Origin: a virus
Lineage: Duplodnaviria; Caudoviricetes
Virus record (IMG/VR): IMGVR_UViG_3300034894_000006
Coordinates: 1 to 55,967 of that record
DNA: 55,967 bases
Direction: 5' to 3' (one strand)
Positions 1,570 through 21,629 of the stretch are shown here, piece by piece; the first letter of the stretch is position 1, and every line of letters starts with the position of its first letter. The notes beneath the pieces are model-generated. The model was given only the letters and a program-made list of their open reading frames with translations. It searched no databases and had not been told where the DNA came from. Made by a program: the position numbers and the translations under genes.

Positions 1570-1599
1570 TTGACAAGTACCCCCATCACATGCTATAAT
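1570..1599 (+). promoter_or_regulatory. Sigma70-type promoter with extended -10
   Basis: TTGACA-18 nt-TATAAT with TGn before the -10. Confidence 0.85.
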
Positions 1600-1921
1600 A
1601 AGAGAGTAGGGAAGCGCCCAAGCAAAGTTCAGTTGAGTTCAGCTAAAGCGCCTTTGATGTTAGCCCTATATAATCAACACTAACCTAACCTTTGATAGAG
1701 AGGTGCTCTATATGCTCACCTAATACCCACTTACCCCACTGACAAAGCTTATTGCGGAATGAGAATGAAGCGCGGTGAACTTTCGGTATAGCTGCGCGAG
1801 TCTTAAGTCAACATGGAACGGTAGGAGAATTTCTCCGCGCTGGTTGAAACCGAACCAATTCAGTTTAGCTAGGCACAGGGAGCCTACTGCCCGTTGTATA
1901 AAGTCGGGCCTAATTTTCTTT

Positions 1922-1992
1922 TGAGTGGCGTAGTTTGCGGATACTTCTAGCCTGTTAAGCTAACCAAAATACCGTAGACGTTTGTTCCCTCA
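1922..1992 (+). ncRNA. Y-RNA-like element Y1 (Ro60-binding stem; GUU anticodon-like hairpin)
   Basis: tgag/ctca and gtttgcgg/ccgtagac stems; tggcgta, tacttc and gtttgttcc motifs shared with five other copies. Confidence 0.75.
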
Positions 1993-2063
1993 CTAGTTCA
2001 ATTCGGAAGTAAAGAGTAGCTGCGCTCGCCAGTCTCCGGAAGCGGGCTGGATTTTCTAATTTC

Positions 2064-2157
2064 TTTTGGGTAGTGATAGTCTTCAGTTACTTCATTAATA
2101 ATGTAATGGTCTGTGCCTGAAATATGGCACTAGCTGAAGGCGCGTGTTCTCCCAAAA
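2064..2157 (+). ncRNA. Y-RNA-like element Y2
   Basis: ttttggg/cccaaaa and gtcttcagtta/tagctgaaggc stems; tacttc and gcgtgttctc motifs; two inner hairpins. Confidence 0.75.
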
Positions 2158-2198
2158 TTTAAGGAAGTGGCTTAGCTATAAGTTCACTTGTAGAAGGT

Positions 2199-2308
2199 GT
2201 GACGCCATCATGCTACATTAACCAGCGCCTCGTTAAGCTAACGAGGGGAAGGATACCGGTTACAGTCGTCAGGAGACCGGAACCCGTTGGGGTTTGTAGT
2301 TAGGTCAC
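2199..2308 (+). ncRNA. Unclassified structured RNA candidate
   Basis: Nested stems gtgac/gtcac, gctaca/tgtagt and ccagcg/cgttgg enclose hairpins cctcgtta/taacgagg and ccggt/accgg; no + strand ORF in the track. Confidence 0.5.
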
Positions 2309-2351
2309 TTCACTTAAATTAGTTTCGGTCGCGCTTTCAAGTAAGCGACTT

Positions 2352-2382
2352 AGCCGCTCTCTTAACGGGGAGCGGCTTTTTT
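2352..2382 (+). terminator. Rho-independent terminator closing the ncRNA region
   Basis: agccgctctc/gggagcggct stem followed by T6. Confidence 0.9.
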
Positions 2383-2395
2383 GTGCCTGAAATAA

Positions 2396-2620
2396 ATGGA
2401 GATAGTGATGAAGTGGTTCACGCCAGTTCGTTTCGCTAACGACCAAACCTACGCATGGTGCAAAACAAAAGAGCGTAGTCACGGGTTACCCGTGTATGCT
2501 CTAAAGAAGCCGGCTACCAAAGACAAAGTTCTTAGTTTTCCTATGCACGGGAATGCTAAGGGCTGTGTTCAAGTAATGGATAATCCCAAAGTTCCCCAAC
2601 CTAGCTCAAAGGAGAGCTAA
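2396..2620 (+). CDS. Hypothetical early protein
   Basis: First ORF of a tightly packed + strand run; start may be the second Met, after GGAG. Confidence 0.6.
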   Translation: MEIVMKWFTPVRFANDQTYAWCKTKERSHGLPVYALKKPATKDKVLSFPMHGNAKGCVQVMDNPKVPQPSSKES

Positions 2621-2621
2621 C

Positions 2622-2834
2622 ATGCCACGCGGTGTTTATACCCGACCCAAAGTTGCTACCGAGACCGAGCAAGCCACTACTAAAGCTCGTGGTGCCAAGG
2701 TGCGCGAAGCTCACAAGCGGAGACGCATCGAGGATGCCCGTGCTCTGTTCGAGGTTGCCAGTGTGAAATACGTGCAAGCGTGCGCGGAACGCGACCAAGC
2801 ATGGGAGGCGCTTAACAAAGCGATGGTGGGATGA
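2622..2834 (+). CDS. Hypothetical basic protein
   Basis: AAGGAG SD; ATGA overlap with the next gene. Confidence 0.75.
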   Translation: MPRGVYTRPKVATETEQATTKARGAKVREAHKRRRIEDARALFEVASVKYVQACAERDQAWEALNKAMVG

Positions 2835-3058
2835 AGCAAAAGAAGCCCCTAGCCAGGTTAATTTTGGTTAGGGGTTTCTTTCACGATGGTTCTCAGTGGC
2901 TAGTCACCACTCCCATAGAGAATCTCTTCGAGGCTGAAGAACAAGCACGGAGGATGCTCAGTGTCCCGGAAATCGATCGCGTGCTTATTACTGACTGGTG
3001 CCTTCGTTCAAGGTCGGATGAGTGGCGTATCGACAGAAGAGTTTTACGAAGGAATTGA
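2831..3058 (+). CDS. Hypothetical protein
   Basis: ATGA coupling to the upstream ORF. Confidence 0.65.
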   Translation: MKQKKPLARLILVRGFFHDGSQWLVTTPIENLFEAEEQARRMLSVPEIDRVLITDWCLRSRSDEWRIDRRVLRRN

Positions 3059-3068
3059 AAAGGACAGT

Positions 3069-3212
3069 ATGATGTACAAGGTAGTTTTTACAAGGAATAG
3101 TAGCCAGTACGTGGTGGAAGTCGGTTCATTTGATGCTATTCAACACGTAGCGGCGGCATTACGCAAGGATGGATGGAGCGTCAAGATCGAGAAACGAAAT
3201 AAGGGGGAGTAG
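3069..3212 (+). CDS. Hypothetical protein (MMYKVVF...)
   Basis: AAGGA SD before an internal ATG of ORF 2961..3212. Confidence 0.55.
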   Translation: MMYKVVFTRNSSQYVVEVGSFDAIQHVAAALRKDGWSVKIEKRNKGE

Positions 3213-3345
3213 TGATTAAGTTCACTTGTACTTCAGGTCCTAATGTTCTTGTGTTCTCAATCAGTTGCAAAATTGCGACTATTATTCTCAAAAATCTGCT
3301 TGAAAAGGCAGGATGGGTCGTAAAAACCACACAGGAGGATACCTA

Positions 3346-3648
3346 ATGTCCGACAAGGTGAAAGAGCCCAAGGCCCCTACACTATTAGATGGCATAACTG
3401 CGCAATTTCATGTGCCTTCTAAGAAGGAAATTGATGGTCTTAGGGTTGGGGATTATGCAAAAGTGGAGGCATTTGCAGGTAAAGGATCTGAACGTTTCTG
3501 GGTGGAGCTTCAGGAGATAGACGGCGCTCACGAAACCTTTACAGGGCGCGTAGATAATGATCTCGTACTTCGTTCTCATAACATCAAAGTCAATGACCTG
3601 ATTACATTCAAGGGGCGCAATATCTTAGCCACCTTGAAGGGAAACTAA
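3346..3648 (+). CDS. DUF2314/YegJ-like protein
   Basis: ERFWVE...FTGRVDND motif; AGGAGG SD before ATG 3346. Confidence 0.65.
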   Translation: MSDKVKEPKAPTLLDGITAQFHVPSKKEIDGLRVGDYAKVEAFAGKGSERFWVELQEIDGAHETFTGRVDNDLVLRSHNIKVNDLITFKGRNILATLKGN

Positions 3649-4045
3649 AGTGATTTTCACCAAAAATGGAGAAAGATTCTTTATCTTTTTTTCTTATTCC
3701 ACCAATAGATATAAGGGGGAATACGTAGCGATGCGAATGTCGGATTCGATATACGACGCTTTTTTTGGGTTAAGCAAAGGGCTGATGCAGTATCAGAAGG
3801 AAATTTAAAATGGCGGGGGCAACTGATCGCGCTACCAAGCGATCCCAAATTGGTAACAGAGTGCAGAGAGGCATCTGGAAGTCAGCCCATGCGTGGAAGC
3901 ATCCTTGGTATCCCGCATTGTGTGCCAGGGTCGCTAAAATCAACTCAGGTGGGTTGAGTGGTGGTAGGCAGGAAGCCAGATTAGACAAGCAAGCGCAGTC
4001 CAAGATTTGGACAGAGCAGAAGCAACGACAAAGGGAGGCTGTGTC

Positions 4046-4237
4046 ATGTCTGGTGTAGTTATCGCTAGATGTAATTGCAAGTCTGAGTATCAGGACCTAG
4101 TGTATGGTCCTAGAATGAGAGTTTTCAATGTGGGTAAAACGCCGGACATAAGGAAATGTACGGTATGTGACCCCATAACAAGAATGAAGAAGTTGGCTAC
4201 GCACGCAGGGATGCACAAAAAGGACGTTCACGGATAA
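4046..4237 (+). CDS. Small Cys-rich (probable Zn-binding) protein
   Basis: GGAGG SD; CNC...CTVC. Confidence 0.6.
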   Translation: MSGVVIARCNCKSEYQDLVYGPRMRVFNVGKTPDIRKCTVCDPITRMKKLATHAGMHKKDVHG

Positions 4238-4243
4238 TCCGCG

Positions 4244-4477
4244 TTGTTCATTTTGGGAGAATTACCCATGCGGCCGGTCCGCGTTATTCTAAACACGCCT
4301 ACAGGCGTGGCACTAATAGAAAATCCCGAGACTGGAGACAGGCAAGCCTACATGGCCTTCATGCCTGCCCCCTTCGGTGAATTACAAGTACAAGAATTCT
4401 CGGAAACTTATCAAACGGCGGAAATACTGGAAGAGGTTCTATCCTCCTTCAGTTCGTTTTATTTTAACTTATTTTAA
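4244..4477 (+). CDS. Hypothetical protein
   Basis: ORF, probably starting at MRPVRV after GGGAG. Confidence 0.55.
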   Translation: MFILGELPMRPVRVILNTPTGVALIENPETGDRQAYMAFMPAPFGELQVQEFSETYQTAEILEEVLSSFSSFYFNLF

Positions 4478-4481
4478 GCCT

Positions 4482-4610
4482 TGGGTGGCGTTGCAAAGGG
4501 TTACTTCGACTGCGAATCGAGAGGTTGTGGGTTCAAGTCCCACTGTAGCCTAAAGGCTATGTAGCTCAATTGGATAGAGCGCTAAAATACCCTTTGCGCC
4601 TGTTCCCCCA
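4482..4610 (+). ncRNA. yrlA: YrlA-type Y RNA (Y3) with circularly permuted tRNA-like domain
   Basis: Ro stem gcaaagggt/accctttgc; T arm gtggg-ttcaagt-cccac; loop-closed acceptor stem tgtagcc-taaa-ggctatg; D arm gctc-aattggata-gagc; TROVE gene nearby. Confidence 0.88.
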
Positions 4611-4640
4611 CTTGTTCGTTCCTAGCTGCTTTTGCAGTTT

Positions 4641-4736
4641 TGGGTAGCGTAGAGTTCAGTTACTTCATTGGTGTATAAGTCCTAGCGGACTTAGGAGGTT
4701 CAAGTCCTTCAGCGGCTGAATTCGTTTGTTCTCCCA
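4641..4736 (+). ncRNA. Y-RNA-like element Y4 with T-arm mimic
   Basis: tggg/ccca and gagttcagtt/ggctgaattc stems; tacttc; inner ggagg-ttcaagt-ccttc. Confidence 0.78.
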
Positions 4737-4942
4737 TTTATGAGAGGTGATTGTATGCGAGGGAAACCAAGGAGATAGCTACCTTATCACCACCTCGACA
4801 GTCTCATATTTATCCGACTCACCGAATCCGTGCCGTATATACGGTAGGTGAGGACGTGTTGGTCCGAGCGTCTGCAATGTATCGGTATCGGGCCTTTTGT
4901 TTGTAGTTTCCTCAACACGTAGCCTAATGGAGGGCTATTCTC

Positions 4943-5491
4943 ATGAAGCTAGCTAATGCAGTTCGTAGAGATCAGATTGATGCGTTGCAAAGATTCATTT
5001 CAGCGCCTCAGCACAAAGCGCTGAATGACTTCAGTGGCACCATAATCAATCTTCGAACAACAATACTGGAGGCAGGATTTAAGAAACCAGGTGACCGCGT
5101 GTTCATGTCTGACAAGGTACCAAAGTTGGCCGTGTGTAACTTAGATGTGCGCCAAACTCTGGTACATATACAGAACGGGCGCCTGCGCTTTATATGCGAC
5201 AATAACGAGGTACTCATGATAAATGTCGCCTTTAGTAATAACAATCTAATTTGGGGAACTGGTACTCCATTGCCTCCTAAAGAGATGACTGAGCACGTTC
5301 CGCAAATTAGGGGGGCCAGGCCGCCGCTAATTCTTTTCGAATCTGGAGAATGGGTTTCTACGGGGCGAGTGTCCCCGCCTGTAGAAGATCCAGCCCTCAT
5401 TCAGCATCTGGTGGGGGATCTGTGGGGGGTGCTGTACACTTGGGAATTAACTCCGTTGGAGAAAGAAGCGCTGCGCGCTATCGGAGTGTGA
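4943..5491 (+). CDS. Hypothetical protein, 182 aa, between Y RNA pairs
   Basis: GGAGG SD; C-terminal DPALIQHLVGDLW..YTWELTPLE block. Confidence 0.8.
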   Translation: MKLANAVRRDQIDALQRFISAPQHKALNDFSGTIINLRTTILEAGFKKPGDRVFMSDKVPKLAVCNLDVRQTLVHIQNGRLRFICDNNEVLMINVAFSNNNLIWGTGTPLPPKEMTEHVPQIRGARPPLILFESGEWVSTGRVSPPVEDPALIQHLVGDLWGVLYTWELTPLEKEALRAIGV

Positions 5492-5492
5492 T

Positions 5493-5759
5493 ATGAGATT
5501 TCTTTGGTTTATACGCCAGTTCTTTGTTTGGGGTATCTTAGGTGTTATCACGGGTTACTTGACTACTGGAATTTGTTTTGCTGTTTGGTTGGCGTATACT
5601 AACTTGGGATTAATTACTACTGCTATGCTCTTTGGAACTGCCGCCATGATTATCGGATTTATAGTTGTAGCAATAATTGAAGGCAACAGACCTGATTTTT
5701 TTAAGCGGCACCGAAGAGTAAACCAAAATCACATAGAACATCGTCACGAACATTTTTAG
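5493..5759 (+). CDS. Membrane protein with two TM helices
   Basis: GGAG SD; two hydrophobic segments and a basic His-rich tail. Confidence 0.75.
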   Translation: MRFLWFIRQFFVWGILGVITGYLTTGICFAVWLAYTNLGLITTAMLFGTAAMIIGFIVVAIIEGNRPDFFKRHRRVNQNHIEHRHEHF

Positions 5760-5765
5760 TTAAAC

Positions 5766-5837
5766 TTTGCCTGGTGAAGTTTAGGGTTACTTCTATTTGT
5801 TATGGAAACCAATACCCTAGACGCTTGTTCCGGCAAA
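5766..5837 (+). ncRNA. Minimal Y-RNA-like element Y5
   Basis: tttgcc/ggcaaa and gtttagggt/accctagac stems; tggtgaag, tacttc and gcttgttcc motifs. Confidence 0.8.
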
Positions 5838-5846
5838 TATTCGTTT

Positions 5847-5911
5847 TGAGTGGTGTAGATCTCAGTTACTTCAATGAAAATGATAAAATACTGAGATCGC
5901 TTGTTCCCTTA
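5847..5911 (+). ncRNA. Minimal Y-RNA-like element Y6
   Basis: tgag/ctta and gatctcagt/actgagatc stems; tggtgtag, tacttc and gcttgttcc motifs; directly upstream of the Ro60 gene. Confidence 0.8.
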
Positions 5912-5951
5912 TTAGCGCGAAGCGCGCATGTCGTCTTCGATAGGAGTTTTT

Positions 5952-7313
5952 ATGTCACAAAGGAATCGTCCGAATGTAACAGAACCAAAACATACGCACG
6001 GTGGAGTAGTCGCGTACCCTCACTTAAAGCCTATACAGCAGCTTCGACGTTCTGTATTGGCGTGCTTGCTCTGGGAGGATCAGTTTTATGAAGATGGGGA
6101 ATCGATTGCTGCACGTATCTCCACTGTTGCGGATAACGTTTCCCCCGAAGAGCTTTCTAGTCTTGCTGTTGAAGCTAGATCTGTGCATCATCTTCGCCAT
6201 GTTCCTCTACTTCTGCTCAAAGCCTTAGCCAAACGTGGAGGTAGGATTGTTGGACAAACAATTTATGAAACCATCCAAAGAGCAGACGAGCTTACTGAAT
6301 TTCTTGCTGTATATTGGAGTCCCGACAAACAGAAGCTATCCGCGCAAGTCAAAATCGGCCTTGCACGGGCTTTTCGTAAGTTTAATGAATACGAACTTGC
6401 GAAGTACAATCGAGATAATGCGATTAAGCTTCGCGACGTATTATTCCTGTGCCACGCGAAACCAAAAAATGCGGCTCAGGAGGCTGTATGGAAAAGGCTT
6501 GTTGACGGCAAGCTCCAAGTGCCGGACACGTGGGAAGTTGCGCTCTCGGGCGGCGCAACCAAAGGGGAAACCTTCACAAGACTAATAAAGGAAGAGAAGC
6601 TTGGATATCTGGCACTTCTACGCAACCTACGAAACATGGCCGAGTCCGGAATGGACATGGGAATCGTCAAGGATGCAATCCTGGCGCGCAAAGGGGGCGC
6701 ACACAGAGTGCTTCCGTTCAGGTTCATCGCCGCTGCCCGTGCGTGCCCCCAGATGGAGCCATATCTTGACCAGGCCCTCGTCGGTTCTATTGAGGATTCC
6801 CAGAAGCTCCCCGGAACTACCATTGTTCTTGTGGATGTATCGGGAAGCATGCTCGCCCCGATTTCTACTAAATCGGATCTCACTAGGATGGACGCTGCGT
6901 GCGCTTTGGCCTCTTTGATTCACGGAGATCGTCGTGTGTTTTCGTTCTCGAACCACACGAAAGAAGTGGCACCGCGATACGGGATGGGGGGAGTGGATGC
7001 CATACGTAGCTCGCAGGGACATAGCAACACGCAGCTTGCGGAAGCTGTAGCCCATGCCAATAAGATTCCGCATGATCGACTCATAGTGATTACGGATGAA
7101 CAAGCTACACTCCGCCCCGCATACTATGGAGCGGCAACTATCCCTGATCCAATTGCCAAAAAAGCTTACATGATCAACGTGGCATCTTATCAAAACGGCG
7201 TTGGTTATGGTAAGTGGATCCACTTGGATGGCTTTTCGGAGTCTGTTATCAAGTGGATTCATGCTGTGGAGTCTCAATCTAACACTGAAAAGGAGGGTCC
7301 CGTTATCGATTAA
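5952..7313 (+). CDS. rsr: Ro60/TROVE-domain RNA-binding protein with C-terminal vWA domain
   Basis: LWEDQFYE, RADEL, F..Y.LAKY, TWE, ALLRNLRN; MIDAS DVSGS...ITDEQ; GFSE; AGGAG SD before ATG 5952. Confidence 0.95.
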   Translation: MSQRNRPNVTEPKHTHGGVVAYPHLKPIQQLRRSVLACLLWEDQFYEDGESIAARISTVADNVSPEELSSLAVEARSVHHLRHVPLLLLKALAKRGGRIVGQTIYETIQRADELTEFLAVYWSPDKQKLSAQVKIGLARAFRKFNEYELAKYNRDNAIKLRDVLFLCHAKPKNAAQEAVWKRLVDGKLQVPDTWEVALSGGATKGETFTRLIKEEKLGYLALLRNLRNMAESGMDMGIVKDAILARKGGAHRVLPFRFIAAARACPQMEPYLDQALVGSIEDSQKLPGTTIVLVDVSGSMLAPISTKSDLTRMDAACALASLIHGDRRVFSFSNHTKEVAPRYGMGGVDAIRSSQGHSNTQLAEAVAHANKIPHDRLIVITDEQATLRPAYYGAATIPDPIAKKAYMINVASYQNGVGYGKWIHLDGFSESVIKWIHAVESQSNTEKEGPVID

Positions 7314-7342
7314 GTGGACTGTTTAGTGTAGGCGAAACTCAG

Positions 7343-7378
7343 AGAGGGCGTCGTTTGGATTCGGCGCCCTCTTTTTTT
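7343..7378 (+). terminator. Rho-independent terminator after the Ro60 gene
   Basis: agagggcgtcg/cggcgccctct stem followed by a T run. Confidence 0.88.
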
Positions 7379-8045: not shown

Positions 8046-8876
8046 ATGTACGGTGCAGATATTGAATTTTTTATTAAAAAAGATCCCACAGGCCGTGTGA
8101 TTCCGGCGTGCGGGTTGGTGGGTGGAGAAAAGAACAACCCCATCAAAATTGACGATACATATGCTATCCTTGAAGATGGAGCAGCCGTAGAGTTGAATTA
8201 CACTCCAACAGATACTCCTAAAGCTTTGATGGATAGAATATATGCTTCGGCAGATGTCATAAACAGCTTTACCAAATACACAACATCAAAAGCACAGGAA
8301 GTGCGTATTAAAGGCATTGAAAATCACAAACAAGCAATGGAGATCGGGTGCATGCCCGATTTCGATGCCTATGCGGATAACCCTCAAGATCCGCGCAAAA
8401 CCCCCGAAATCGATGAATTCAAAGGTTTTCGATTTAGTGGCGCTCATTTACATTTTAGCTATGAAACACACGAGCAAGTGCCTGCATTCGTTGCAGCACG
8501 GCTAGCAGATGTGTATATAACGCTACCAGTACTAAGTTTGGCCTATAGTCTAGGTGGCGATAAGTTAATGAGATGTATTTTGGGTCCTCGTAGAGCTAAG
8601 TTTTATGGACTACCCGGATTGTATAGACCCAAGCCCTATGGAATGGAGTATCGCACACTTAGCAACTTTATTGCGTTTGATAAACGTTTTTATCAAACAC
8701 TACGAACTGGGATGCACTCTACTACCTGGCTATTAGATTCTACTAGGTTAGACGAAGAGTTGCCTAAGTTGATGATTCACATGGATTGGGCTAAGGTTAG
8801 GGAAGCAATCACAACATTGGATATAAAGCTGATTAAGAGCTGTCTTGAACATAAGGCAACCTCAGCTCTACAATAA
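8046..8876 (+). CDS. phiEco32-like COOH-NH2 ligase type 2
   Basis: GADIEFF, EDGAAVELN, GC.PD, GAHLH and YRPKPYGMEYRTLSN motifs. Confidence 0.88.
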   Translation: MYGADIEFFIKKDPTGRVIPACGLVGGEKNNPIKIDDTYAILEDGAAVELNYTPTDTPKALMDRIYASADVINSFTKYTTSKAQEVRIKGIENHKQAMEIGCMPDFDAYADNPQDPRKTPEIDEFKGFRFSGAHLHFSYETHEQVPAFVAARLADVYITLPVLSLAYSLGGDKLMRCILGPRRAKFYGLPGLYRPKPYGMEYRTLSNFIAFDKRFYQTLRTGMHSTTWLLDSTRLDEELPKLMIHMDWAKVREAITTLDIKLIKSCLEHKATSALQ

Positions 8877-8885
8877 GGAGGCACC

Positions 8886-9509
8886 ATGCACATAGTGGAT
8901 AGTGCGCCTGAATTTGCTAGATATTTTACAGGAACGTGGATAGGTAGACCAACCGGTAAGCACGTTGTCCCTTGTTACGTTAATTATATCAACGAGACTA
9001 CGGGCTCTTGTGATATACGTGAATATAACGCTCAAGGTACTTATTTGGATGGACGAGTGTTGTTCCCTGAAATTATAGAAAATTATCAGCTATTTCCACC
9101 AATGGGCGGAAATGTTAATTTTGATCAGGGATATTTTCACGTAAGTACAACGCCGAAACGTCACAGCTCCAAAGGATTTAGTAGTCATCGATTAACTTAT
9201 AAGAGGTTTGGGGTTCCTCATGGGGATGTGATTTATCGTATAGGAGAGTGGATTTGGAGACTATATAATCCAACCTATGTCTCTATAGAACAAGCGTTAG
9301 GAGAACTTAGAACACAAGCAGTTCACGCTAGGGCTATATCTCATGATGTGGGATTGGAAAACGCAAATTCAGGGAAAATAATCGTAAGATTTCAAAACAC
9401 TATTATTGGGAGCGTAATAGAAACTAAGATTAATATTCTTAGTCAATATAGTTTAGTAGCCGAAATCTTTAATAATACTAAAGGCTATGAGTTATGTCTG
9501 ATAGACTAG
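8886..9509 (+). CDS. Hypothetical protein within the amidoligase cluster
   Basis: AAGGAGG SD; position in operon. Confidence 0.8.
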   Translation: MHIVDSAPEFARYFTGTWIGRPTGKHVVPCYVNYINETTGSCDIREYNAQGTYLDGRVLFPEIIENYQLFPPMGGNVNFDQGYFHVSTTPKRHSSKGFSSHRLTYKRFGVPHGDVIYRIGEWIWRLYNPTYVSIEQALGELRTQAVHARAISHDVGLENANSGKIIVRFQNTIIGSVIETKINILSQYSLVAEIFNNTKGYELCLID

Positions 9510-10300
9510 GAGTGGAGATAGAACTAGAAGGAGTAGGTGAAAACGATGCTAGGTTGAAGCCCTACAAATATTGGCAAGTTAAGGAGGATGGTTCGTTAAG
9601 GGATGGAGGTATTGAGTATGTGTTTAATATACCTCATCCATACACAACAGCAATTAAAGCACTAGATGAACTATATGAGAGGCTAGATAAAGTTAGATTT
9701 AATATCTCGTGTAGAACTGGAACGCACGTTCATGTAGATGCTAGGGATCTTAATGTAAAAGCGTTGAGAGTGTTGTGTTTCATCTATGCCGCGTTTGAAA
9801 GAGAGCTATTCAACTGGGTAGGTGACGGTCGGCATCAGAATATGTACTGCTTGCCTTGGTACGCAGCACAAGGAGATATTCCTAATATATGTACTGCTGT
9901 TATGGGGATATCTACTAAGAACTCGGATGTCATATCTCAAGCACGTTATTTGCATAGATATAGTGCCTTGAATTTACAAGCTTTGAATAAGTTTGGAAGT
10001 ATTGAGTTTAGGCACCTTTTATCCACTAAAAACAAGGCTAGGATTGTTGAGTGGATAAATTTGATCGTGGCGATGAGGGCTTTTGCTAGAGACAATCAAG
10101 ACCTAGATCTCAGTAAAACTATAGTAGATATCATAGCCCTGAATAATAAAAATGAACTAAAGGAGAAAGTGTTTGGAAACTACGCCAATTTACTGACTGT
10201 CAACGAAGAGCCCGATGCTAATGTATTCGCTGTTCTTCAGAATTTGGTAGCGTCTGCGCACCCACCAGCTTTTACGCTGGCAAAGCTAAAGTTAATATAA
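9494..10300 (+). CDS. Putative amidoligase (Amidoligase_2 family)
   Basis: GVEIELE, DGSL, GTHVHVD, RYSALN, IEFRH. Confidence 0.88.
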   Translation: MSDRLGVEIELEGVGENDARLKPYKYWQVKEDGSLRDGGIEYVFNIPHPYTTAIKALDELYERLDKVRFNISCRTGTHVHVDARDLNVKALRVLCFIYAAFERELFNWVGDGRHQNMYCLPWYAAQGDIPNICTAVMGISTKNSDVISQARYLHRYSALNLQALNKFGSIEFRHLLSTKNKARIVEWINLIVAMRAFARDNQDLDLSKTIVDIIALNNKNELKEKVFGNYANLLTVNEEPDANVFAVLQNLVASAHPPAFTLAKLKLI

Positions 10301-10315
10301 TAAGGAGAAGAAAGA

Positions 10316-11842
10316 GTGTGCGGTATTTTCGGACTAGCTGTAAGTAATAAATGTTCTCTTATCGAGTACCCAAAGCGAGCTTTCATAGATGAAGCTTTAA
10401 TCTGCGGTACAATTCGCGGGGACGATAGCACTGGAGTGTGTACAGTTGCGAAAGACGGAGAGGTTACAGTTCTAAAGAACACCTTGGCCGGTTTTGAGTT
10501 CGTACAACAACCAGCTTTTCGTAAGCTGATGACGTCTAGTGCTATGTATTCGTTGATTCTAGGTCACCACAGATATAAAACTACGGGAGAAATCTCCAAG
10601 AGAGATGCCCACCCGCATTCGTGGGATCACATAACGCTCGTCCACAATGGGACGATCTCTAATGCATATCATTTGCCAGGCTATCGTTATGCTAAGGATG
10701 ATTCCTATGTGGATTCATTCAGAGCTACTATGGCAATGGCTAATGAGGGAGCAAGTAAAACTCTACCTCGCCTAGAGGGAGGTTACTCATTAGTGTGGCA
10801 CGATGCTAATGAGAGCACTGTTAACTTTGCTCGCAACGATGATAAGCCTATGTATATGTGCTGGGGACCTGAAAAGGAGTCCCTATTCTGGGCGTCCGAA
10901 CCTGGTATGTTGCACTGGTTGATGGTTCGTAATAACATTTATCCCCCCAAGGATTGTCATATTACGTCGTTGCCAATTCACACACACATCAAGTTCAAAC
11001 TTGGTCCAGTGTTGGAAATGACATCGGAAATCTATGAAGTTAAAGGATTCTCAGGTCCTAACTATGGAAAACCCAACTACGATCACTTGACCAGATATGA
11101 TCGCCCTAATGGTCACCCTGGTTTGGAGAACGATGACTTGGGAAAAGCGCAAACGGGTGGCCCGAATGGTGGGACTGATAACGTAGGAGACCCTTCTGCT
11201 CCGAAGTCACTCATACCCACCTACCTGCCCGCTACTCGTAAACATTCGACAGAAGGACCGGGGGTGGAGGAACCGACCCAAGTGGAGAAGTTTCTTAGCG
11301 CCAAAAGGAGAAGCAAACTCAACAGAAGGCTCGCGGTTTTCCACAAAGGTCTTACAGCTAATGCAATTATTTGGGGTGTTCCTGATATTTGGCATGCTTA
11401 TAAAAATAATCATAGATCTCAAGGGGTAGGTCAATTTTTGTGGATTAAGGATCACACATTGCTGCATGTTCACAGTGTTACCGCAGATATGTGGGCGAAA
11501 GCTGTCGGTGGAAATTTGCTGGTTCCTATTTCCATCACAGGAATCACAGACAATAACCGAATCCTTACTGGTAGTATTGCTTTTGATCGGTTGAAGCAAG
11601 GTTGGACCATCGCTGACGGTATTCCGGATACTAACGACCAACTCAAATTTGTTCCATTTGGCCTTGGCGAATATATAAGCAAGGCGGAGTATATCGAGAG
11701 AACCAAGGGCGGTTGTACGTGGTGCGAAGAGCACATCTCTCTCGGAGATGCTCTTGACGTTTACTGGGAAGCTAATTTGCCGCTTTGTAAAATTTGTGGC
11801 GAAATTAATGCAAAAAAGGATGATATTCAACATGGTAACTAA
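10316..11842 (+). CDS. Class II (Ntn) glutamine amidotransferase with C-terminal Zn ribbon
   Basis: N-terminal MCGI, RG.DSTG, GHHRY.T.G, AHPH, HNGTI; CxxC...CxxC at the C-terminus. Confidence 0.9.
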   Translation: MCGIFGLAVSNKCSLIEYPKRAFIDEALICGTIRGDDSTGVCTVAKDGEVTVLKNTLAGFEFVQQPAFRKLMTSSAMYSLILGHHRYKTTGEISKRDAHPHSWDHITLVHNGTISNAYHLPGYRYAKDDSYVDSFRATMAMANEGASKTLPRLEGGYSLVWHDANESTVNFARNDDKPMYMCWGPEKESLFWASEPGMLHWLMVRNNIYPPKDCHITSLPIHTHIKFKLGPVLEMTSEIYEVKGFSGPNYGKPNYDHLTRYDRPNGHPGLENDDLGKAQTGGPNGGTDNVGDPSAPKSLIPTYLPATRKHSTEGPGVEEPTQVEKFLSAKRRSKLNRRLAVFHKGLTANAIIWGVPDIWHAYKNNHRSQGVGQFLWIKDHTLLHVHSVTADMWAKAVGGNLLVPISITGITDNNRILTGSIAFDRLKQGWTIADGIPDTNDQLKFVPFGLGEYISKAEYIERTKGGCTWCEEHISLGDALDVYWEANLPLCKICGEINAKKDDIQHGN

Positions 11843-12311
11843 GGCGAAGTACCCTCTTTTTGTGTATGGTTCGCTTAAGAAAGATCACGGCGCCCACAGA
11901 ATCATAGCGGGCGCTGATTTTATTTCAGAAGCGAAGGTCCAGGGAAGTTTGGTAGATCTTGGTTATTTTCCTGGACTTCTCTTGGACACCGAGAAATACG
12001 GTGTCTCAGGAGAATTATATTCTATCACAGAGAAGCACCTGAAGTCAACTGATATGCTTGAATCTGAAGGGTCTTTTTACTTTAGGACAGTGGTAGACGC
12101 TAAGCTTCCGGATGGACAGATAATAGATACGTATGTGTACTTCTTACCAACTTGGTATTGCAAGAGGTATCCGAAGATAGAAGGAGGTAATTGGCATGGG
12201 GGTGTATATTCTCCCGTACAAATGGTGCAGTCTGAGCGCAGTGGCGTTAAGCAGGGCGACAAAGATACGCAGAATCAGCTTATTGAAACAAACGTTCAAG
12301 GCGAAGCCTAA
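11832..12311 (+). CDS. Gamma-glutamylcyclotransferase (AIG2-like)
   Basis: FVYGSLK, GYFPG, GELY, D.LE. Confidence 0.88.
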   Translation: MVTKAKYPLFVYGSLKKDHGAHRIIAGADFISEAKVQGSLVDLGYFPGLLLDTEKYGVSGELYSITEKHLKSTDMLESEGSFYFRTVVDAKLPDGQIIDTYVYFLPTWYCKRYPKIEGGNWHGGVYSPVQMVQSERSGVKQGDKDTQNQLIETNVQGEA

Positions 12312-12957
12312 CGATATAATCATTAATTGGGGCAATTCGTCGGATTACGCGATTGAATTGAAGCCCAAAGAGTGGTTGAATAAACCTGAGGCTGTTGCTA
12401 ATGCTATCAACAAAATTAAGTTCTTGGAGATTGCGTCTAAAGCAGGAGTGTCTGTACCAAAATGGACAAAAGAGGTTGGGGAAGCGAAAAAGTGGTTGAA
12501 GAAATACAAGGTAGTTGCCCGTACTCTTGTGGAATCGAGCGCGGCGAAGGGGATTGTATTGGTAGATTCTGGTACGGAATTGCCTGGTGCAAAATTGTAC
12601 ACGCGATATGTGCCGAAGAAGGTAGAGTATCGTGTGCATGTATTCTTAGGAGTGGTCTTCGATGTCCAACAAAAGAAAAGCAGAGCTGAAGCCGACGATG
12701 TGGACTACCAGATTCGTTCGTATGATAATGGATGGATCTTCGCCAGAGACGGAGTGTCGTGCCCTAAAAGCGTTACAACTGCAGCTTTGGGAGCGATTAA
12801 GGCCATACACCTTGACTTTGGAGCTGTCGATGTGGGGTGGACAGAGAAAGACGATAAAGCAACAGTTTACGAAATAAACACCGCTCCGGGGCTGGAGGGT
12901 GAAACAATAACAAATTACGCACAAAAAATAAAAGAGGTATTTTATGCCCAAGGTTAG
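12196..12957 (+). CDS. ATP-grasp (RimK-like) ligase
   Basis: INWG, EYRVHV, DFGAVDV, YEINTAPG; GGAGG SD. Confidence 0.9.
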   Translation: MGVYILPYKWCSLSAVALSRATKIRRISLLKQTFKAKPNDIIINWGNSSDYAIELKPKEWLNKPEAVANAINKIKFLEIASKAGVSVPKWTKEVGEAKKWLKKYKVVARTLVESSAAKGIVLVDSGTELPGAKLYTRYVPKKVEYRVHVFLGVVFDVQQKKSRAEADDVDYQIRSYDNGWIFARDGVSCPKSVTTAALGAIKAIHLDFGAVDVGWTEKDDKATVYEINTAPGLEGETITNYAQKIKEVFYAQG

Positions 12958-19276: not shown

Positions 19277-20125
19277 ATGCTTAGTGTAAGCTTTTCTAGG
19301 TCATATTGGCACAAGATAGAGCCTATTAATTTCCCAGGAGGGGAACTACACATTGACCTTGACAATCTATTTGAAGAAGAAGAGCAGTGCGTAATTAAAG
19401 TTGATTTTAGAACTTCTGGAGATATCATAGGAGTGCTATTACTTACAGATGCTTTGAGACGCAAATCTCCAGGTATTAAGATTTCACTATACATGCCGTA
19501 TCTTCCGTATGCACGGCAGGATAGATACGAAAAAGACTTTGCTTTCAGCCTAAAAGTGCTGTGCAATCTAATAAATGAGCAGAACTATGAACAAGTCACA
19601 ATTCTTGATTGCCATTCAGATGTTGGGCCTGCTTTGCTCAATCGTTGCAGGAATATACCTGTGGAAGACTTGGTACCTTCTAAGGAAATTCTCAAGTTGG
19701 CGCCAGGAACACATATCCTCGCTCCAGACCAAGGCGCGCATAAAAAGTGCGCAAGAGTTGCAGCAAAACTTGGGTTGCCACTTATCCAGGCACAGAAGAC
19801 GAGAGACCCTAAGACGGGTAAAGTAGAGATAGATATTGAATATCTGGAGGAAAGGGAATGTCCACCTGCTTTTTTAGTTGTAGACGATATATGCGATGGT
19901 GGCGCTACGTTTAGTCTTCTTAGAGAATGCCTACCGTTAGACGTAGATTTACGTTTATGGGTTACGCACGGAATTTTTAGCAAAGGTCTCAAACCTTTAA
20001 CAGCATCAACCCCTGGAGAAGATCCACCATATAAGCAGATTTGGACAGCTAATAACATGTCAGGGATCATTCCAGATCTTCCCTTCATCAGTGAACAACT
20101 AAAGGTGTATCCGTATGTATATTAA
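19277..20125 (+). CDS. prs: Ribose-phosphate pyrophosphokinase-like protein (probable Adps)
   Basis: FPGGE, PYLPYARQDR, D.HS, APDQGA, VVDDICDGGATF, THGIF. Confidence 0.93.
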   Translation: MLSVSFSRSYWHKIEPINFPGGELHIDLDNLFEEEEQCVIKVDFRTSGDIIGVLLLTDALRRKSPGIKISLYMPYLPYARQDRYEKDFAFSLKVLCNLINEQNYEQVTILDCHSDVGPALLNRCRNIPVEDLVPSKEILKLAPGTHILAPDQGAHKKCARVAAKLGLPLIQAQKTRDPKTGKVEIDIEYLEERECPPAFLVVDDICDGGATFSLLRECLPLDVDLRLWVTHGIFSKGLKPLTASTPGEDPPYKQIWTANNMSGIIPDLPFISEQLKVYPYVY

Positions 20126-21629
20126 TCCATTGAATGCGATTGATTTCTACAAGGCCGATCACAGACGTCAATATCCTCACGGAACTGAATATGTCTACTC
20201 AAACTTTACCCCTCGTAGTGCTCGTCATGCTATCGATTCGAAACTCGTGGGGCCAAACTTCGACAACAAAGTGGTTTTCGTTGGGCTTCAGGGTTTCTGC
20301 AGATGGTTTTTGCGAGACTGTTTTAACCAGCACTTCTTTTCTCGACCCAAAGTGGAAGTCGTTGCCGCCTACAAACGACGAATGGATAGGTCCTTGGGAG
20401 AAGGAGCCATCCCTGTAGAGCACATAGCGGCTTTGCATGATCTACAGTATCTGCCGATAATGATAAAGGCAGTACCCGAAGGTACACGGGTACCTATTGG
20501 TGTACCGATGCTTACTATCGAGAATACCGATGAAGATTTCTTCTGGCTCACCAACTACCTGGAGACGGTACTATCGAATAGTTTGTGGAAAGCTTGCACA
20601 GAAGCCACAATAGCGTACGAATATCGCAAACTATTCAAAAAGTATGCCGTGGAAACTGGAGGCAATCTTTCTTTTGTTGACGTCCAGGGCCATGATTTCT
20701 CAGCCCGAGGAATGAGTACAATTTATGACGCAGCTAGTTCGGGTATTGGACATTTGCTCTCTTTTGTCGGCACTGACACTGTCTCTGCTATTGACTATGC
20801 AGAACACTATTACGGTGGGAACGTTATTGGGGTGTCTGTACCTGCAACTGAGCACTCTGTCATGTCTATGGGCGGCCGAGAAGACGAAATCTCTACCTTT
20901 CAGCGCCTTATCCAAGACCTATATCCTAGTGGTATTGTATCTATTGTCTCTGATACTTGGAATTTTTGGACTGTCATTACTGAGTATGCCGCCCGCCTTA
21001 AAGACATTATACTCAACAGAACTCCTGACAGCCTAGGAATGGCCAAGGTGGTGTTCAGGCCGGATAGTGGAGATCCGGTGAAGATCATCTGTGGCGATCC
21101 AGAAGCGCCAGAGGGTAGCCCAGCTCGTAAAGGGGCTGTACAGTGCTTGTGGGACATCTTTGGAGGAACTACGAATGCTAGTGGTTATCGTACAATTAAT
21201 CAGTGTGTGGGTCTTATTTATGGGGATAGTATTACTTACAGTAGGGCTAGTGAGATTCTTGAGCGGCTCAAGAGAGCCTCCTTCGCCTCAGATAATATTG
21301 TCTTCGGGATTGGGTCTTATACTTATCAGTATGTTACTCGCGATACCTTTGGATTTGCTATGAAATCCACTTGGGGTAGAGTACTTGGAGAGCCACGGGA
21401 GTTATCCAAGGACCCTATTACAGACGACGGCACCAAGAAGTCTTTGAAAGGTTTGTTAAAAGTTATTAGGACCGATGACGGGAATCTAACGGTTCTAGAC
21501 CAGTTGTTGGGCCGGGGTATGGGAGGTAAGGCGGACGTAATGGATATCGTGTTCTTTGATGGGGAAATGGATAATCCTGAGACTTTTGATACTATCAAAC
21601 GAAGGCTATGCAGTACCGACGAAAGGTAA
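20115..21629 (+). CDS. nadV: Nicotinamide phosphoribosyltransferase-like protein (probable Namat)
   Basis: DFYKADH, HDFSARG, F.GTD, PATEHS, SIVSDT, RPDSGDP, IYGDSI, KKS.KG. Confidence 0.95.
   Translation: MYINPLNAIDFYKADHRRQYPHGTEYVYSNFTPRSARHAIDSKLVGPNFDNKVVFVGLQGFCRWFLRDCFNQHFFSRPKVEVVAAYKRRMDRSLGEGAIPVEHIAALHDLQYLPIMIKAVPEGTRVPIGVPMLTIENTDEDFFWLTNYLETVLSNSLWKACTEATIAYEYRKLFKKYAVETGGNLSFVDVQGHDFSARGMSTIYDAASSGIGHLLSFVGTDTVSAIDYAEHYYGGNVIGVSVPATEHSVMSMGGREDEISTFQRLIQDLYPSGIVSIVSDTWNFWTVITEYAARLKDIILNRTPDSLGMAKVVFRPDSGDPVKIICGDPEAPEGSPARKGAVQCLWDIFGGTTNASGYRTINQCVGLIYGDSITYSRASEILERLKRASFASDNIVFGIGSYTYQYVTRDTFGFAMKSTWGRVLGEPRELSKDPITDDGTKKSLKGLLKVIRTDDGNLTVLDQLLGRGMGGKADVMDIVFFDGEMDNPETFDTIKRRLCSTDER

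What the first reader, a model, noticed from the sequence alone, without database searches (positions are those of the whole stretch)
1948..5883. Most Y-like RNAs display a different anticodon-like loop at the same position
Seen: at or just after UACUUC there is a short hairpin with a 7-nt loop and U at loop position 2, like U33. Y1 has tagc-CU GUU AA-gcta (Asn), Y3 tcga-CU GCG AA-tcga (Arg) and Y6 tca-AU GAA AA-tga (Phe). Weaker cases are Y5 tcta-UU UGU UA-tgga (Thr) and Y2 ca-UU AAU AA-tg (Ile). Y1, Y5 and Y6 consist of little beyond the Ro stem and this loop. Inference: the RNPs could present a panel of anticodon loops as decoys or sensors for host anticodon nucleases (PrrC, RloC, VapC types) or tRNA-modifying enzymes. 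That would be an RNA-based anti-defence system.
Basis: partly seen in the sequence, partly recalled or inferred. Interest (0 to 1): 0.88.

Follow-up and report, generated by a model that had tools for sequence, protein, structure and literature searches.

The report
Anticodon arms on phage Y RNAs
Some of the small Y RNAs encoded next to this phage's Ro60 gene carry a hairpin built like a tRNA anticodon arm, a feature shared by many related phage and bacterial Y RNAs, but nothing yet shows that it works as a decoy against host defences.

Summary
The window is a complete 55,967-bp phage genome. It has a Ro60 gene (5952-7313) and six Y-like RNAs whose Ro-binding stem covaries.

The anticodon-like hairpin is real for Y3 (5 bp, 7-nt loop CUGCGAA, then a 5-nt AGGUU and a T arm) and for Y1 (4 bp, CUGUUAA). 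It is marginal for Y5 and Y6, refuted for Y2 and absent in Y4. "Most" is therefore overstated.

Among 46 unique Y3-type RNAs found with a loop-blind pattern, 42 have 7-nt loops, and all 42 have U at position 2 and a purine at position 6. In sets found through Ro60 alone, 15 of 32 viral and 28 of 68 bacterial tRNA-domain Y RNAs have the arm. So do 24 to 26 of 79 to 98 small Y RNAs, where shuffles give about 1 to 3.

Between close relatives the triplet changes about as fast as unconstrained loops (5/27), while the stem never changes (0/90). Shape is selected, not the anticodon.

The hairpin is the "V" stem-loop already described for YrlA, so this is a new variant of a known kind. The decoy and anti-defence idea is untested, and the same arms occur in bacterial genome assemblies (one locus checked has cellular flanking genes).

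The parts
1570..1599 (+). sigma-70-type promoter-like site upstream of Y1 and Y2
   Evidence: 12 of 12 consensus matches plus TG. Consensus scan only.
1920..1994 (+). Y1: small Y-like RNA made of the Ro stem, AUACUUC, an anticodon-like hairpin and an A-rich tail
   Evidence: R1 71.9 bits; fold.
1948..1962 (+). Y1 hairpin UAGC[CUGUUAA]GCUA (4 bp, 7-nt loop, U at 2, A at 6)
   Evidence: In the MFE fold; ensemble P 0.57. The same loop occurs in Y3-type RNAs of other phages.
2065..2156 (+). Y2: Y-like RNA with two other hairpins and no anticodon-like arm
   Evidence: R1 73.6 bits. The proposed 2-bp hairpin has P 0.000 and a 6-bp alternative is in the MFE fold.
2352..2377 (+). terminator-like hairpin after Y2
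   Evidence: 11-bp stem and a T run.
4480..4612 (+). Y3: YrlA-type Y RNA with a full tRNA-like module
   Evidence: R1 74.8 bits, R2 130.5 bits. Rfam YrlA 36.4 bits, below the cut-off of 69, matching only the T, AS and D arms.
4505..4521 (+). Y3 anticodon-arm mimic UUCGA[CUGCGAA]UCGAG; equals the 'V' stem-loop of YrlA
   Evidence: ARAGORN tRNA-Arg gcg; Rfam tRNA 28.3 bits. Conserved in 42 of 46 unique pattern-found homologues.
4522..4543 (+). Y3 5-nt variable-loop-like AGGUU (4522-4526) and T arm (4527-4543)
   Evidence: Alignments; T stem paired in 99% of cells.
4544..4580 (+). Y3 closed acceptor-like stem-loop (4544-4561), UA, and D arm (4564-4580)
4639..4738 (+). Y4: Y-like RNA with a tetraloop hairpin and a T arm (about 4694-4710), no anticodon-like arm
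   Evidence: R1 83.6 bits; fold.
5766..5837 (+). Y5: small Y-like RNA; hairpin 5791-5807 UUCUA[UUUGUUA]UGGAA (U at 2, but U at 6)
   Evidence: R1 72.2 bits. The MFE fold closes it to a 5-nt loop; P of the open 7-nt loop is 0.02.
5845..5913 (+). Y6: small Y-like RNA; weak 3-bp hairpin 5871-5883 UCA[AUGAAAA]UGA
   Evidence: R1 72.5 bits. Isolated dG +1.7. Relatives show UUC...GAA closure with loops of varying length.
5952..7313 (+). Ro60 orthologue (TROVE plus vWA)
   Evidence: Pfam TROVE 7.4e-12. 88 phage records and 583 bacterial stretches encode relatives.
7341..7374 (+). terminator-like hairpin after Ro60
   Evidence: 13-bp stem and a T run.

Best explanation
The six RNAs are Y RNAs of the YrlA lineage that partner the phage Ro60.

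In Y3 the effector module is a whole tRNA cloverleaf with a closed acceptor stem: anticodon arm, 5-nt variable loop, T arm, closed acceptor hairpin and D arm. The Ro60-binding helix emerges between the D arm and the anticodon arm. In this subfamily it has the dimensions of an anticodon arm: usually a 5-bp stem, a 7-nt loop, Y/A32, U33, NNN, R37, A38. Y1, and less cleanly Y5, are reduced versions that keep only this arm. Y4 keeps only a T arm.

Shown: the arm's frame is under strong purifying selection, while the triplet is free to change.

Inferred: what is selected is a U-turn anticodon-loop shape. This lets the Ro60 RNP bind, or be bound by, a protein that recognises tRNA anticodon arms without reading the anticodon. 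Candidates are position-37 or position-32 modification enzymes and other tRNA-handling proteins. Binding would tether Ro60, and through it an exonuclease, to tRNA metabolism. The arm is most simply inherited from the tRNA ancestor proposed in the dimeric-tRNA origin model.
For: - Ro stem: 100% paired, 9 of 14 pairs covary.
- Y3 cloverleaf on 20 homologues: 89% of cells paired, 26 of 35 pairs change on both sides. The anticodon stem is 92% paired and one pair switches AU (13) to CG (5).
- Spacing: NUACUUC to the T stem is exactly 26 nt (4+5+7+5+5) in 41 of 71 tRNA-domain RNAs.
- A loop-blind pattern (N{3,11}) found 66 stretches. Of these, 53 are followed by a T arm: 47 have a 7-nt loop, 2 have 6 nt and 4 have 8 nt. 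All 47 seven-nt loops have U at 2 and a purine at 6, and 45 have A at 7. After removing duplicates this is 42 of 46.
- Sets found through Ro60 only: 15 of 32 viral and 28 of 68 bacterial tRNA-domain Y RNAs have the canonical arm, where shuffles give about 1. Small Y RNAs: 26 of 98 and 24 of 79, where shuffles give 1.7 and 1.4.
- Nine independent close pairs: differences are 0/90 in the anticodon stem, 0/18 at 37-38, 0/42 in the variable loop, 5/27 at 34-36, 7/21 in the acceptor-stem loop and 13/80 in the linker.
- tRNA finders read the arm as an anticodon arm: ARAGORN on 5 Y RNAs; Rfam tRNA above its cut-off on 3; GenBank tRNA-Thr, tRNA-Gln and tRNA-Ser features lie on Y RNAs.
- Model R2 positions 26-64 also hit true tRNAs.
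- Literature: YUAY begins the V region and a V stem-loop lies upstream of T (Chen 2014, sections 5, 6 and 10 read). The dimeric-tRNA model is cited in Wang 2018 (passages read).
Against: - About half of the tRNA-domain Y RNAs and two thirds of the small ones lack the arm (17 of 32, 40 of 68, 72 of 98, 55 of 79). It is therefore not needed for Ro60 partnership.
- Covariation in the anticodon stem is thin: 1 of 5 pairs. Its 5' strand overlaps the invariant UUC of NUACUUC, so conservation could reflect another constraint.
- Nearest-neighbour folding gives the Y3 hairpin only P 0.14.
- The sequences are related, so shuffle controls overstate independence.
- Whether the hairpin or the Ro helix stacks under the D stem cannot be told from sequence. 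The solved Salmonella YrlA has the Ro-proximal helix in the anticodon-stem position and no such loop.
- No expression, Ro60 binding or partner protein was shown. No RNA run was listed.
Confidence: 0.6

Rival explanations
1. The Ro60 RNPs display anticodon loops as decoys or cleavage sensors for host anticodon nucleases (PrrC, RloC, VapC-like and similar enzymes), giving the phage an RNA-based counter-defence.
For: - The anticodon-arm geometry is conserved and the triplet is variable.
- In 31 of 32 loci with two or more such loops, the triplets all differ.
- In three near-identical contigs, one small Y RNA differs within its insert only in the triplet (UAG, UGU, CGG), plus one change in the 3' strand of its stem.
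- The Y RNAs sit in the region behind a strong promoter among small ORFs.
- The genome carries NAD-salvage genes of a kind I recall as counter-defence.
- A Ro60-like protein of phage Bas63 is reported to counter the ppl system (PMC11482910, passages read).
Against: - The triplet is the main specificity element of the known anticodon nucleases (my recall). Here it changes no faster than unconstrained loops (5/27 against 7/21 and 13/80), and it is not conserved among phages of related hosts.
- Most loci show none or one such loop (91 of 123), so there is no panel.
- The same arms occur in bacterial genome assemblies, where the one locus I checked (L159) has cellular flanking genes.
- A stoichiometric decoy would have to compete with the whole tRNA pool (inference).
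- All-distinct triplets are expected by chance when about 20 triplets are in use.
Confidence: 0.12
2. The hairpin is a structural cap. A stable helix next to the Ro stem, closed through the invariant UUC, protects the RNA from nucleases or positions Ro60. Its likeness to an anticodon loop is an inherited accident with no reader protein.
For: - 123 of 146 NUACUUC RNAs can close a hairpin through UUC, with loops of 2-12 nt.
- The UUC...GAA subtype has loops of 3-9 nt with no U33/R37 rule.
- Chen 2014 (section 10 read) proposes nuclease protection as one role of the tRNA fold.
Against: A mere cap would not hold the loop at 7 nt in 42 of 46, U33 in 42 of 42, R37 in 42 of 42 and position 38 nearly invariant, while letting 34-36 vary. 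Seven-nt loops are the only loop size strongly enriched over shuffles, apart from the 9-nt loop that arises when the closing pair opens.
Confidence: 0.15
3. Neutral relic. The arm is left over from a recent tRNA ancestor and is decaying.
For: - The arm is degenerate or missing in many lineages.
- Loops of 6 or 8 nt occur in 4 of 46.
- Y RNAs lie inside tRNA arrays in L003 and L020.
Against: 0 changes in 90 anticodon-stem sites, and 0 of 18 at 37-38, across nine close pairs whose unconstrained parts differ at 16-33%. The same stem sequence is kept across phages of Xanthomonas, Caulobacter and Brevundimonas and across metagenomic viruses.
Confidence: 0.08
4. [quoted passage not shown]
For: - All four arms and a variable loop are present.
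- M. smegmatis YrlA is cut by RNase P and receives CCA (Chen 2014, section 10 read).
Against: - A roughly 20-bp Ro helix at the D/anticodon junction would be bulky on a ribosome (inference).
- The triplet is unconstrained.
- The small Y RNAs have the arm alone.
Confidence: 0.03

Closest known systems
YrlA-type bacterial and phage Y RNAs (Chen et al. 2014, PMC4201824; Rfam RF02553; Salmonella YrlA structure, bioRxiv 10.1101/312249)
   Same: - Encoded next to Ro60 on the same strand.
- 5' motif close to GNCGAAN0-1G (GGCGUAG, GGUGAAG and similar).
- The conserved YUAY is the NUAC seen here.
- A stem-loop upstream of the T arm (their 'V'), then a T arm, a closed acceptor-like stem and a D arm.
- Several Y RNAs can occur at one locus (YrlA and YrlB).
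   Different: - Here the 'V' hairpin has the dimensions and conserved frame of an anticodon arm and is followed by a 5-nt AGGUC-type loop. The Salmonella structure paper states that YrlA lacks the anticodon loop.
- Both strands of the Ro helix are conserved and covary.
- No member reached Rfam's YrlA cut-off in the window or in the 8 loci scanned.
- Loci hold up to 8 Y RNAs, and many are reduced to the arm alone.
D. radiodurans Yrn1
   Same: Chen 2014 (section 6 read) notes a potential 'anticodon arm' with a 5-bp stem in this Y RNA.
   Different: That loop has 6 nt. The arm lies between the T and D elements, which is a different topology, and the lineage is described as separate.
Bona fide phage tRNAs, including those reported to counter tRNA-targeting defences (van den Berg 2023, seen only as a reference listed in PMC11482910)
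   Same: Anticodon arm, variable loop, T arm and D arm. Some Y RNAs pass the Rfam tRNA cut-off (33.3, 32.8 and 30.2 bits) and are annotated as tRNAs.
   Different: The acceptor stem is closed by a loop. The order is permuted, with the T arm before the D arm. A Ro-binding helix is inserted. The triplet is not conserved.
Phage Ro60 systems: Thermus phage phiLo Ro60 with Yrl1 and Yrl2 (PMC12135203); Bas63 gp130 (PMC11482910)
   Same: A phage Ro60 with Y-like RNAs encoded upstream. Host-PNPase hijack and counter-defence roles have been proposed. The Bas63 paper suggests that some annotated phage tRNAs are Y RNAs.
   Different: In the passages I read, no anticodon-like arm is described for those RNAs. 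I did not compare their sequences here.

Membership tests
YrlA-type Y RNA | Encoded within about 4 kb of a Ro60 (TROVE) gene on the same strand | tested here: met
   All six lie 39-4032 nt upstream of Ro60 (5952-7313) on the + strand. All R1 hits in the homologous loci are on the Ro60 strand.
YrlA-type Y RNA | 5' motif GNCGAAN0-1G in the Ro60-binding strand | tested here: inconclusive
   The window RNAs carry one-off variants (GGCGUAG, AGUGAUAG, GGUGAAG, GGUGUAG). Exact GGCGAAG occurs in homologues such as L020 and L086.
YrlA-type Y RNA | Conserved YUAY ahead of the V region | tested here: met
   NUACUUC in 146 of 169 viral inserts and as the dominant start of the 147 bacterial inserts. All six window RNAs have it.
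YrlA-type Y RNA | T arm, closed acceptor-like stem and D arm with tRNA-like conserved bases | tested here: met
   Met for Y3 only: Rfam YrlA positions 24-84 aligned; helices paired 93-100%, except the inner acceptor helix at 66%. Y4 has a T arm only. Y1, Y2, Y5 and Y6 have none.
YrlA-type Y RNA | Score at or above Rfam RF02553 gathering cut-off (69 bits) | tested here: not met
   Y3 scores 36.4 bits. No YrlA hit at the cut-off in the window or in 8 homologous loci.
YrlA-type Y RNA | Physical binding to Ro60 | not testable with these tools
   Needs RIP, EMSA or a structure.
tRNA | Anticodon arm: 5-bp stem, 7-nt loop, U33, purine 37 | tested here: met
   Y3 at 4505-4521. Y1 has 4 bp.
tRNA | Open 7-bp acceptor stem with a free 3' end, and the arm order D, anticodon, T | tested here: not met
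   The acceptor-like stem is closed by a 4-nt loop (4544-4561). The T arm precedes the D arm, and the Ro helix lies between the D arm and the anticodon arm.
tRNA | Rfam RF00005 gathering cut-off (29 bits) | tested here: not met
   Y3 scores 28.3 bits. Three homologous Y RNAs do pass, at 33.3, 32.8 and 30.2 bits.
Anticodon-nuclease decoy or sensor (no curated family) | Bound or cut by an anticodon nuclease, and protects phage growth against such a defence | not testable with these tools
The indirect evidence is mixed.

The most novel reading that the evidence does not exclude
Ro60 RNPs of phages and bacteria use a Ro60-tethered anticodon stem-loop, with or without the rest of the tRNA body, as bait for enzymes that act on anticodon loops. 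The loops fall into two classes...U36-A37-A38 and ...G36-G37-A38. From my recall, these are the determinants for t6A37 and m1G37 formation. The RNP might therefore capture, titrate or report on position-37 modification enzymes or anticodon-loop nucleases. In a phage this would amount to an RNA-based takeover or counter-defence device. Arrays of two to eight Y RNAs would then display different tRNA parts: the whole tRNA, the T arm alone or the anticodon arm alone.
Probability: 0.15. Interest if true: 0.85.

Novelty: new variant of a known kind. Interest (0 to 1): 0.6.

Why it matters
- Y RNAs that mimic tRNA are known, but their effector is not. The published view, from what I read, is that YrlA copies the T arm, the D arm and the acceptor stem and lacks an anticodon loop.
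- A large branch of the family, in phages and in bacterial genomes, keeps a strictly framed anticodon arm, and many reduced Y RNAs keep only that arm. This points to the anticodon-arm side of the mimic as a binding surface and gives a concrete bait for pull-downs.
- It supplies sequence-level support for the dimeric-tRNA origin model.
- It flags a recurring annotation error: Y RNAs called tRNA-Thr, tRNA-Gln, tRNA-Ser, tRNA-Asn, tRNA-Glu or tRNA-Arg in phage genomes inflate counts of phage tRNA genes.
- Searches that found no paper describing an anticodon arm in YrlA-type Y RNAs. The supplements of Chen 2014 could not be seen and may show these hairpins.

Tried and rejected
- Minimum-free-energy folding of whole RNAs often misses tRNA-like arms, so I used it only as a guide.
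- Rfam at gathering thresholds finds no Y RNA family in the window.
- Expression: the look-up of sequencing runs listed one DNA holder, possibly the source sample, and no RNA holder.
- Close relatives of this phage that could supply orthologues of Y1, Y5 and Y6 were not found. The best Ro60 matches are 58-64% identical. Those three RNAs were therefore judged by subtype, not by orthology.
- I considered a test in which the Y3-type module is cut at the acceptor loop, rejoined in tRNA order and given to ARAGORN. I did not run it, because it needs joined sequences. I counted pairs on native-order alignments instead.
- Testing whether the triplet matches the isotype of the tRNA-like body needs a tRNA reference set that I did not have. 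The Glu-like D arm with CUC in L014:4606 is a recalled impression only.
- Positive selection on the triplet: the nine-pair comparison shows no excess over unconstrained sites. The small-RNA comparison had only two usable pairs.
- Control genomes gave no above-threshold YrlA, so I did not compare a genuine Salmonella-type V region.

Rows dropped:
- One search was given 51 of the 66 pattern loci. Left out were 13 matches without a T arm and 2 duplicates.
- One search was given 71 sources: the window plus 70 of the loci then held. Left out were those 15, the duplicates L012 and L013, and L063.
- Alignments A5, A7 and A9 hold at most the best 150 hits, so 44 of 194 hits and 52 of 202 hits were not analysed.
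- Identical sequences were counted once.

Full report
WHAT THE WINDOW IS

The window is a whole virus record of 55,967 bp with direct terminal repeats. ORF 5952-7313 (+) is a Ro60 orthologue with TROVE and vWA domains. Upstream of it, on the same strand, lie six RNAs that share one scaffold:
- a lower stem of 4+2 bp with a bulged U;
- an internal loop holding GGYG(N)WAG on the 5' side and CGYUUGUUC on the 3' side;
- an 8-bp upper stem;
- NUACUUC directly after the 5' strand of that upper stem.

On the six sequences all 84 pair cells are standard pairs, and 9 of 14 pairs change on both sides. A covariance model of this scaffold (R1) finds exactly these six in the genome. A perfect sigma-70-like promoter (1570-1599) precedes Y1 and Y2, and terminator-like hairpins follow Y2 and Ro60.

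THE OBSERVATION IN THE WINDOW

- Y3 (4480-4612) holds UUCGA[CUGCGAA]UCGAG at 4505-4521. This is followed by AGGUU, a T arm, a closed 7-bp acceptor-like hairpin, UA and a D arm. ARAGORN calls it tRNA-Arg(gcg). Rfam's tRNA model gives 28.3 bits against a cut-off of 29. Rfam's YrlA model aligns the T, acceptor-like and D parts at 36.4 bits, below its cut-off of 69.
- Y1 holds UAGC[CUGUUAA]GCUA at 1948-1962.
- Y5 has a 5-bp stem and U at loop position 2. Position 6 is U, however, and the first and last loop bases pair, so the open 7-nt loop has ensemble probability 0.02.
- Y6 has only 3 bp.
- Y2's proposed hairpin has 2 bp and probability 0.000.
- Y4 has nothing of the kind.

Two of six meet a criterion of at least 4 bp, a 7-nt loop, U at position 2 and a purine at position 6. 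Shuffles give 0.18 (P = 0.017).

HOMOLOGUES: SAMPLING

- Ro60 relatives gave 13 IMG/VR loci. 88 phage records hold a relative, and I fetched eight of them.
- R1 found 29 Y-like RNAs in the IMG/VR loci and 38 in the named phages. All are on the Ro60 strand. They form arrays of 2-8, with eight in Caulobacter phage CcrColossus.
- The GenBank features tRNA-Thr (Xanthomonas phage 10KY502B), tRNA-Gln (CcrColossus) and tRNA-Ser (Brevundimonas phage Kikimora) lie on these Y RNAs.
- ARAGORN calls four more Y RNAs as tRNAs, reading the hairpin triplet as the anticodon. Three pass Rfam's tRNA cut-off.

I searched IMG/VR with the conserved stem of Y3 and a free loop of 3-11 nt. This gave 66 stretches.
- 13 have no T arm and are unrelated.
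- 53 are Y3-type RNAs. Their loop is 7 nt in 47, 6 nt in 2 and 8 nt in 4.
- In the 47 seven-nt loops, position 2 is U in 47, position 6 is a purine in 47, position 7 is A in 45 and position 1 is never G. At least 16 different middle triplets occur.
- After removing duplicates, 42 of 46 have 7-nt loops, and all 42 have U33 and R37.

This sample fixes the stem, so I also counted in samples found through Ro60 alone. A full cloverleaf model (R2) supplied the alignment.
- 15 of 32 viral full-length RNAs have the canonical arm.
- In 80 bacterial genome loci, R1 made 202 hits, all upstream of Ro60 on its strand. I analysed the best 150, which gave 147 unique sequences.
- Among these, 28 of 68 tRNA-domain RNAs have the arm, where shuffles give 1.0.

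The small Y RNAs show it too.
- 26 of 98 viral RNAs, where shuffles give 1.7.
- 24 of 79 bacterial RNAs, where shuffles give 1.4.
- 17 of 36 of the smallest bacterial ones.

Seven is the loop size that stands out. The sequences are related, so these shuffles overstate independence. About half to two thirds of the family lacks the arm.

WHAT IS CONSERVED AND WHAT IS NOT

Nine independent pairs of close relatives (86-97% identical) were compared site by site.

| Region | Differences / sites |
|---|---|
| Anticodon-like stem | 0/90 |
| Loop positions 37-38 | 0/18 |
| 5-nt variable loop | 0/42 |
| D stem | 0/72 |
| Loop positions 32-33 | 1/18 |
| Triplet 34-36 | 5/27 |
| Acceptor-stem loop | 7/21 |
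| 3' linker | 13/80 |

The frame is among the best-kept parts of the RNA. The triplet behaves like unconstrained sequence, not like a site of accelerated change.

In three near-identical contigs, one small Y RNA differs within its insert only in its triplet (UAG, UGU, CGG), with one more change in the 3' strand of its stem. This is striking but is a single case.

Loop positions 36 and 37 go together. The counts are U-A 41, G-G 16 and U-G 0 in the viral set. In the bacterial tRNA-domain set they are U-A 10, G-G 7 and U-G 1.

WHAT IT IS

Chen et al. 2014 (sections 5, 6 and 10 read) describe four features of YrlA RNAs:
- a GNCGAAN0-1G motif;
- a conserved YUAY that begins the V region;
- a less conserved 'V' stem-loop upstream of the T arm;
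- T, AS and D arms.

The NUAC here is that YUAY, and the hairpin is that V stem-loop. The RNAs are therefore members of the YrlA lineage. They fall below Rfam's cut-off, and both strands of their Ro helix are conserved.

What is new is the character of the hairpin:
- a 5-bp stem and a 7-nt loop with the tRNA frame;
- a following 5-nt AGGUC-type loop that looks like a class I variable loop;
- a fixed 26-nt spacing to the T stem in 41 of 71.

The hairpin then fits the anticodon arm better than a class II variable arm. On that reading the Ro helix emerges at the D/anticodon junction. This is an inference: the topology allows both readings. In the solved Salmonella YrlA the Ro-proximal helix takes the anticodon-stem position, and the authors state that YrlA lacks the anticodon loop (10.1101/312249, passages read).

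The layout matches the dimeric-tRNA origin model quoted there. The anticodon arm, variable loop and T arm would come from a first tRNA, and the D arm from a second. Truncated forms exist: arm plus T arm (L041:5309), and arm only (Y1, L068:283, L081:9021, L086:12159, and the bacterial L139, L147, L159 and L166).

HOW IT PROBABLY WORKS

Shown: selection keeps a U-turn-type 7-nt loop on a fixed stem next to the Ro60-binding helix and ignores the triplet.

Inferred: the arm is read by something that recognises anticodon arms generically. It is part of the tRNA mimic through which the Ro60 RNP meets tRNA-handling proteins. Published work shows that D-loop and T-loop enzymes modify YrlA (Chen 2014).

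THE DECOY IDEA

The decoy and sensor idea remains possible, but four results argue against it:
- The triplets are not conserved.
- Most loci show none or one such loop (35 and 56 of 123).
- The arms are equally present in bacterial genome assemblies.
- In the one bacterial locus I examined in detail (L159), a glycoside hydrolase, a BCS1-like AAA ATPase and a molybdopterin oxidoreductase flank the array and Ro60.

A counter-defence role for a phage Ro60-like protein has been reported for Bas63 gp130 against ppl. Its authors also suggest that some annotated phage tRNAs are Y RNAs (PMC11482910, passages read). An anti-defence context is therefore not far-fetched.

VERDICT

- The structure is a genuine and widely conserved anticodon-arm mimic within a known RNA family.
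- The proposed function is open.
- I rate this a new variant of a known kind, of moderate to good interest.

Noticed in passing
L014:4828-4895, L015:5173-5240, L016:5772-5846 (GenBank OQ622092, JX100810, ON529857): The annotated tRNA-Thr, tRNA-Gln and tRNA-Ser upstream of Ro60 in three cultured phages coincide with Y RNAs. These are likely misannotations. ARAGORN makes the same kind of call in L002, L014, L021 and the window.
   Followed up: yes
L015:4762-5955 (Caulobacter phage CcrColossus); L089-L168: Tandem arrays of Y-like RNAs lie upstream of Ro60: eight in CcrColossus, and many bacterial loci have four or more R1 hits. Array members are of mixed types: whole tRNA mimic, T arm only, anticodon-like arm only, or other hairpins.
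   Followed up: partly
window 19277-21629: A ribose-phosphate pyrophosphokinase-like gene and a nicotinamide phosphoribosyltransferase gene lie side by side. From recall, this pair resembles a phage NAD+ reconstitution pathway that counters NAD-depleting defences.
   Followed up: no
window 8046-12957: A cluster of COOH-NH2 ligase, amidoligase, glutamine amidotransferase, gamma-glutamyl cyclotransferase and RimK-like genes lies directly downstream of Ro60. From recall, it resembles the phiEco32-type peptide or metabolite modification cassette.
   Followed up: no
L003:3093-3368: A bacterial type A RNase P RNA (126.8 bits) sits inside a 26-tRNA array of a viral contig that also holds Ro60 and four Y RNAs interleaved with the tRNAs.
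   Followed up: no
L016:9347-9692: A permuted tmRNA hit (57.7 bits, cut-off 47) in Brevundimonas phage Kikimora, near its Ro60 locus.
   Followed up: no
window 1963-1971 and 5808-5814; L086:12159, L042:595, L140:285, L154:3564: In many small Y RNAs the anticodon-like hairpin is followed directly by ACCA or ACC and then an A-rich tail. This looks like a discriminator base plus CCA after a minihelix. It may be chance or simply part of the linker motif.
   Followed up: no
alignment A7; Loop positions 36 and 37 co-vary (U-A and G-G common, U-G almost absent). This gives two loop classes...UAA and ...GGA, on the same stem. From recall, these match the determinants of t6A37 and m1G37. Relatedness between sequences was not controlled.
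   Followed up: partly
window 1600-1920 and 2160-2350: The non-coding stretches between the strong promoter and Y1, and between Y2 and the terminator, have no ORF of note and contain further hairpins (for example near 2224-2250). I did not examine them.
   Followed up: no
L159:2564-3928: In an Acidobacteriaceae chromosome, a BCS1-like AAA ATPase gene lies between the Y RNA array and Ro60. It may be a conserved partner of the vWA-bearing Ro60.
   Followed up: no
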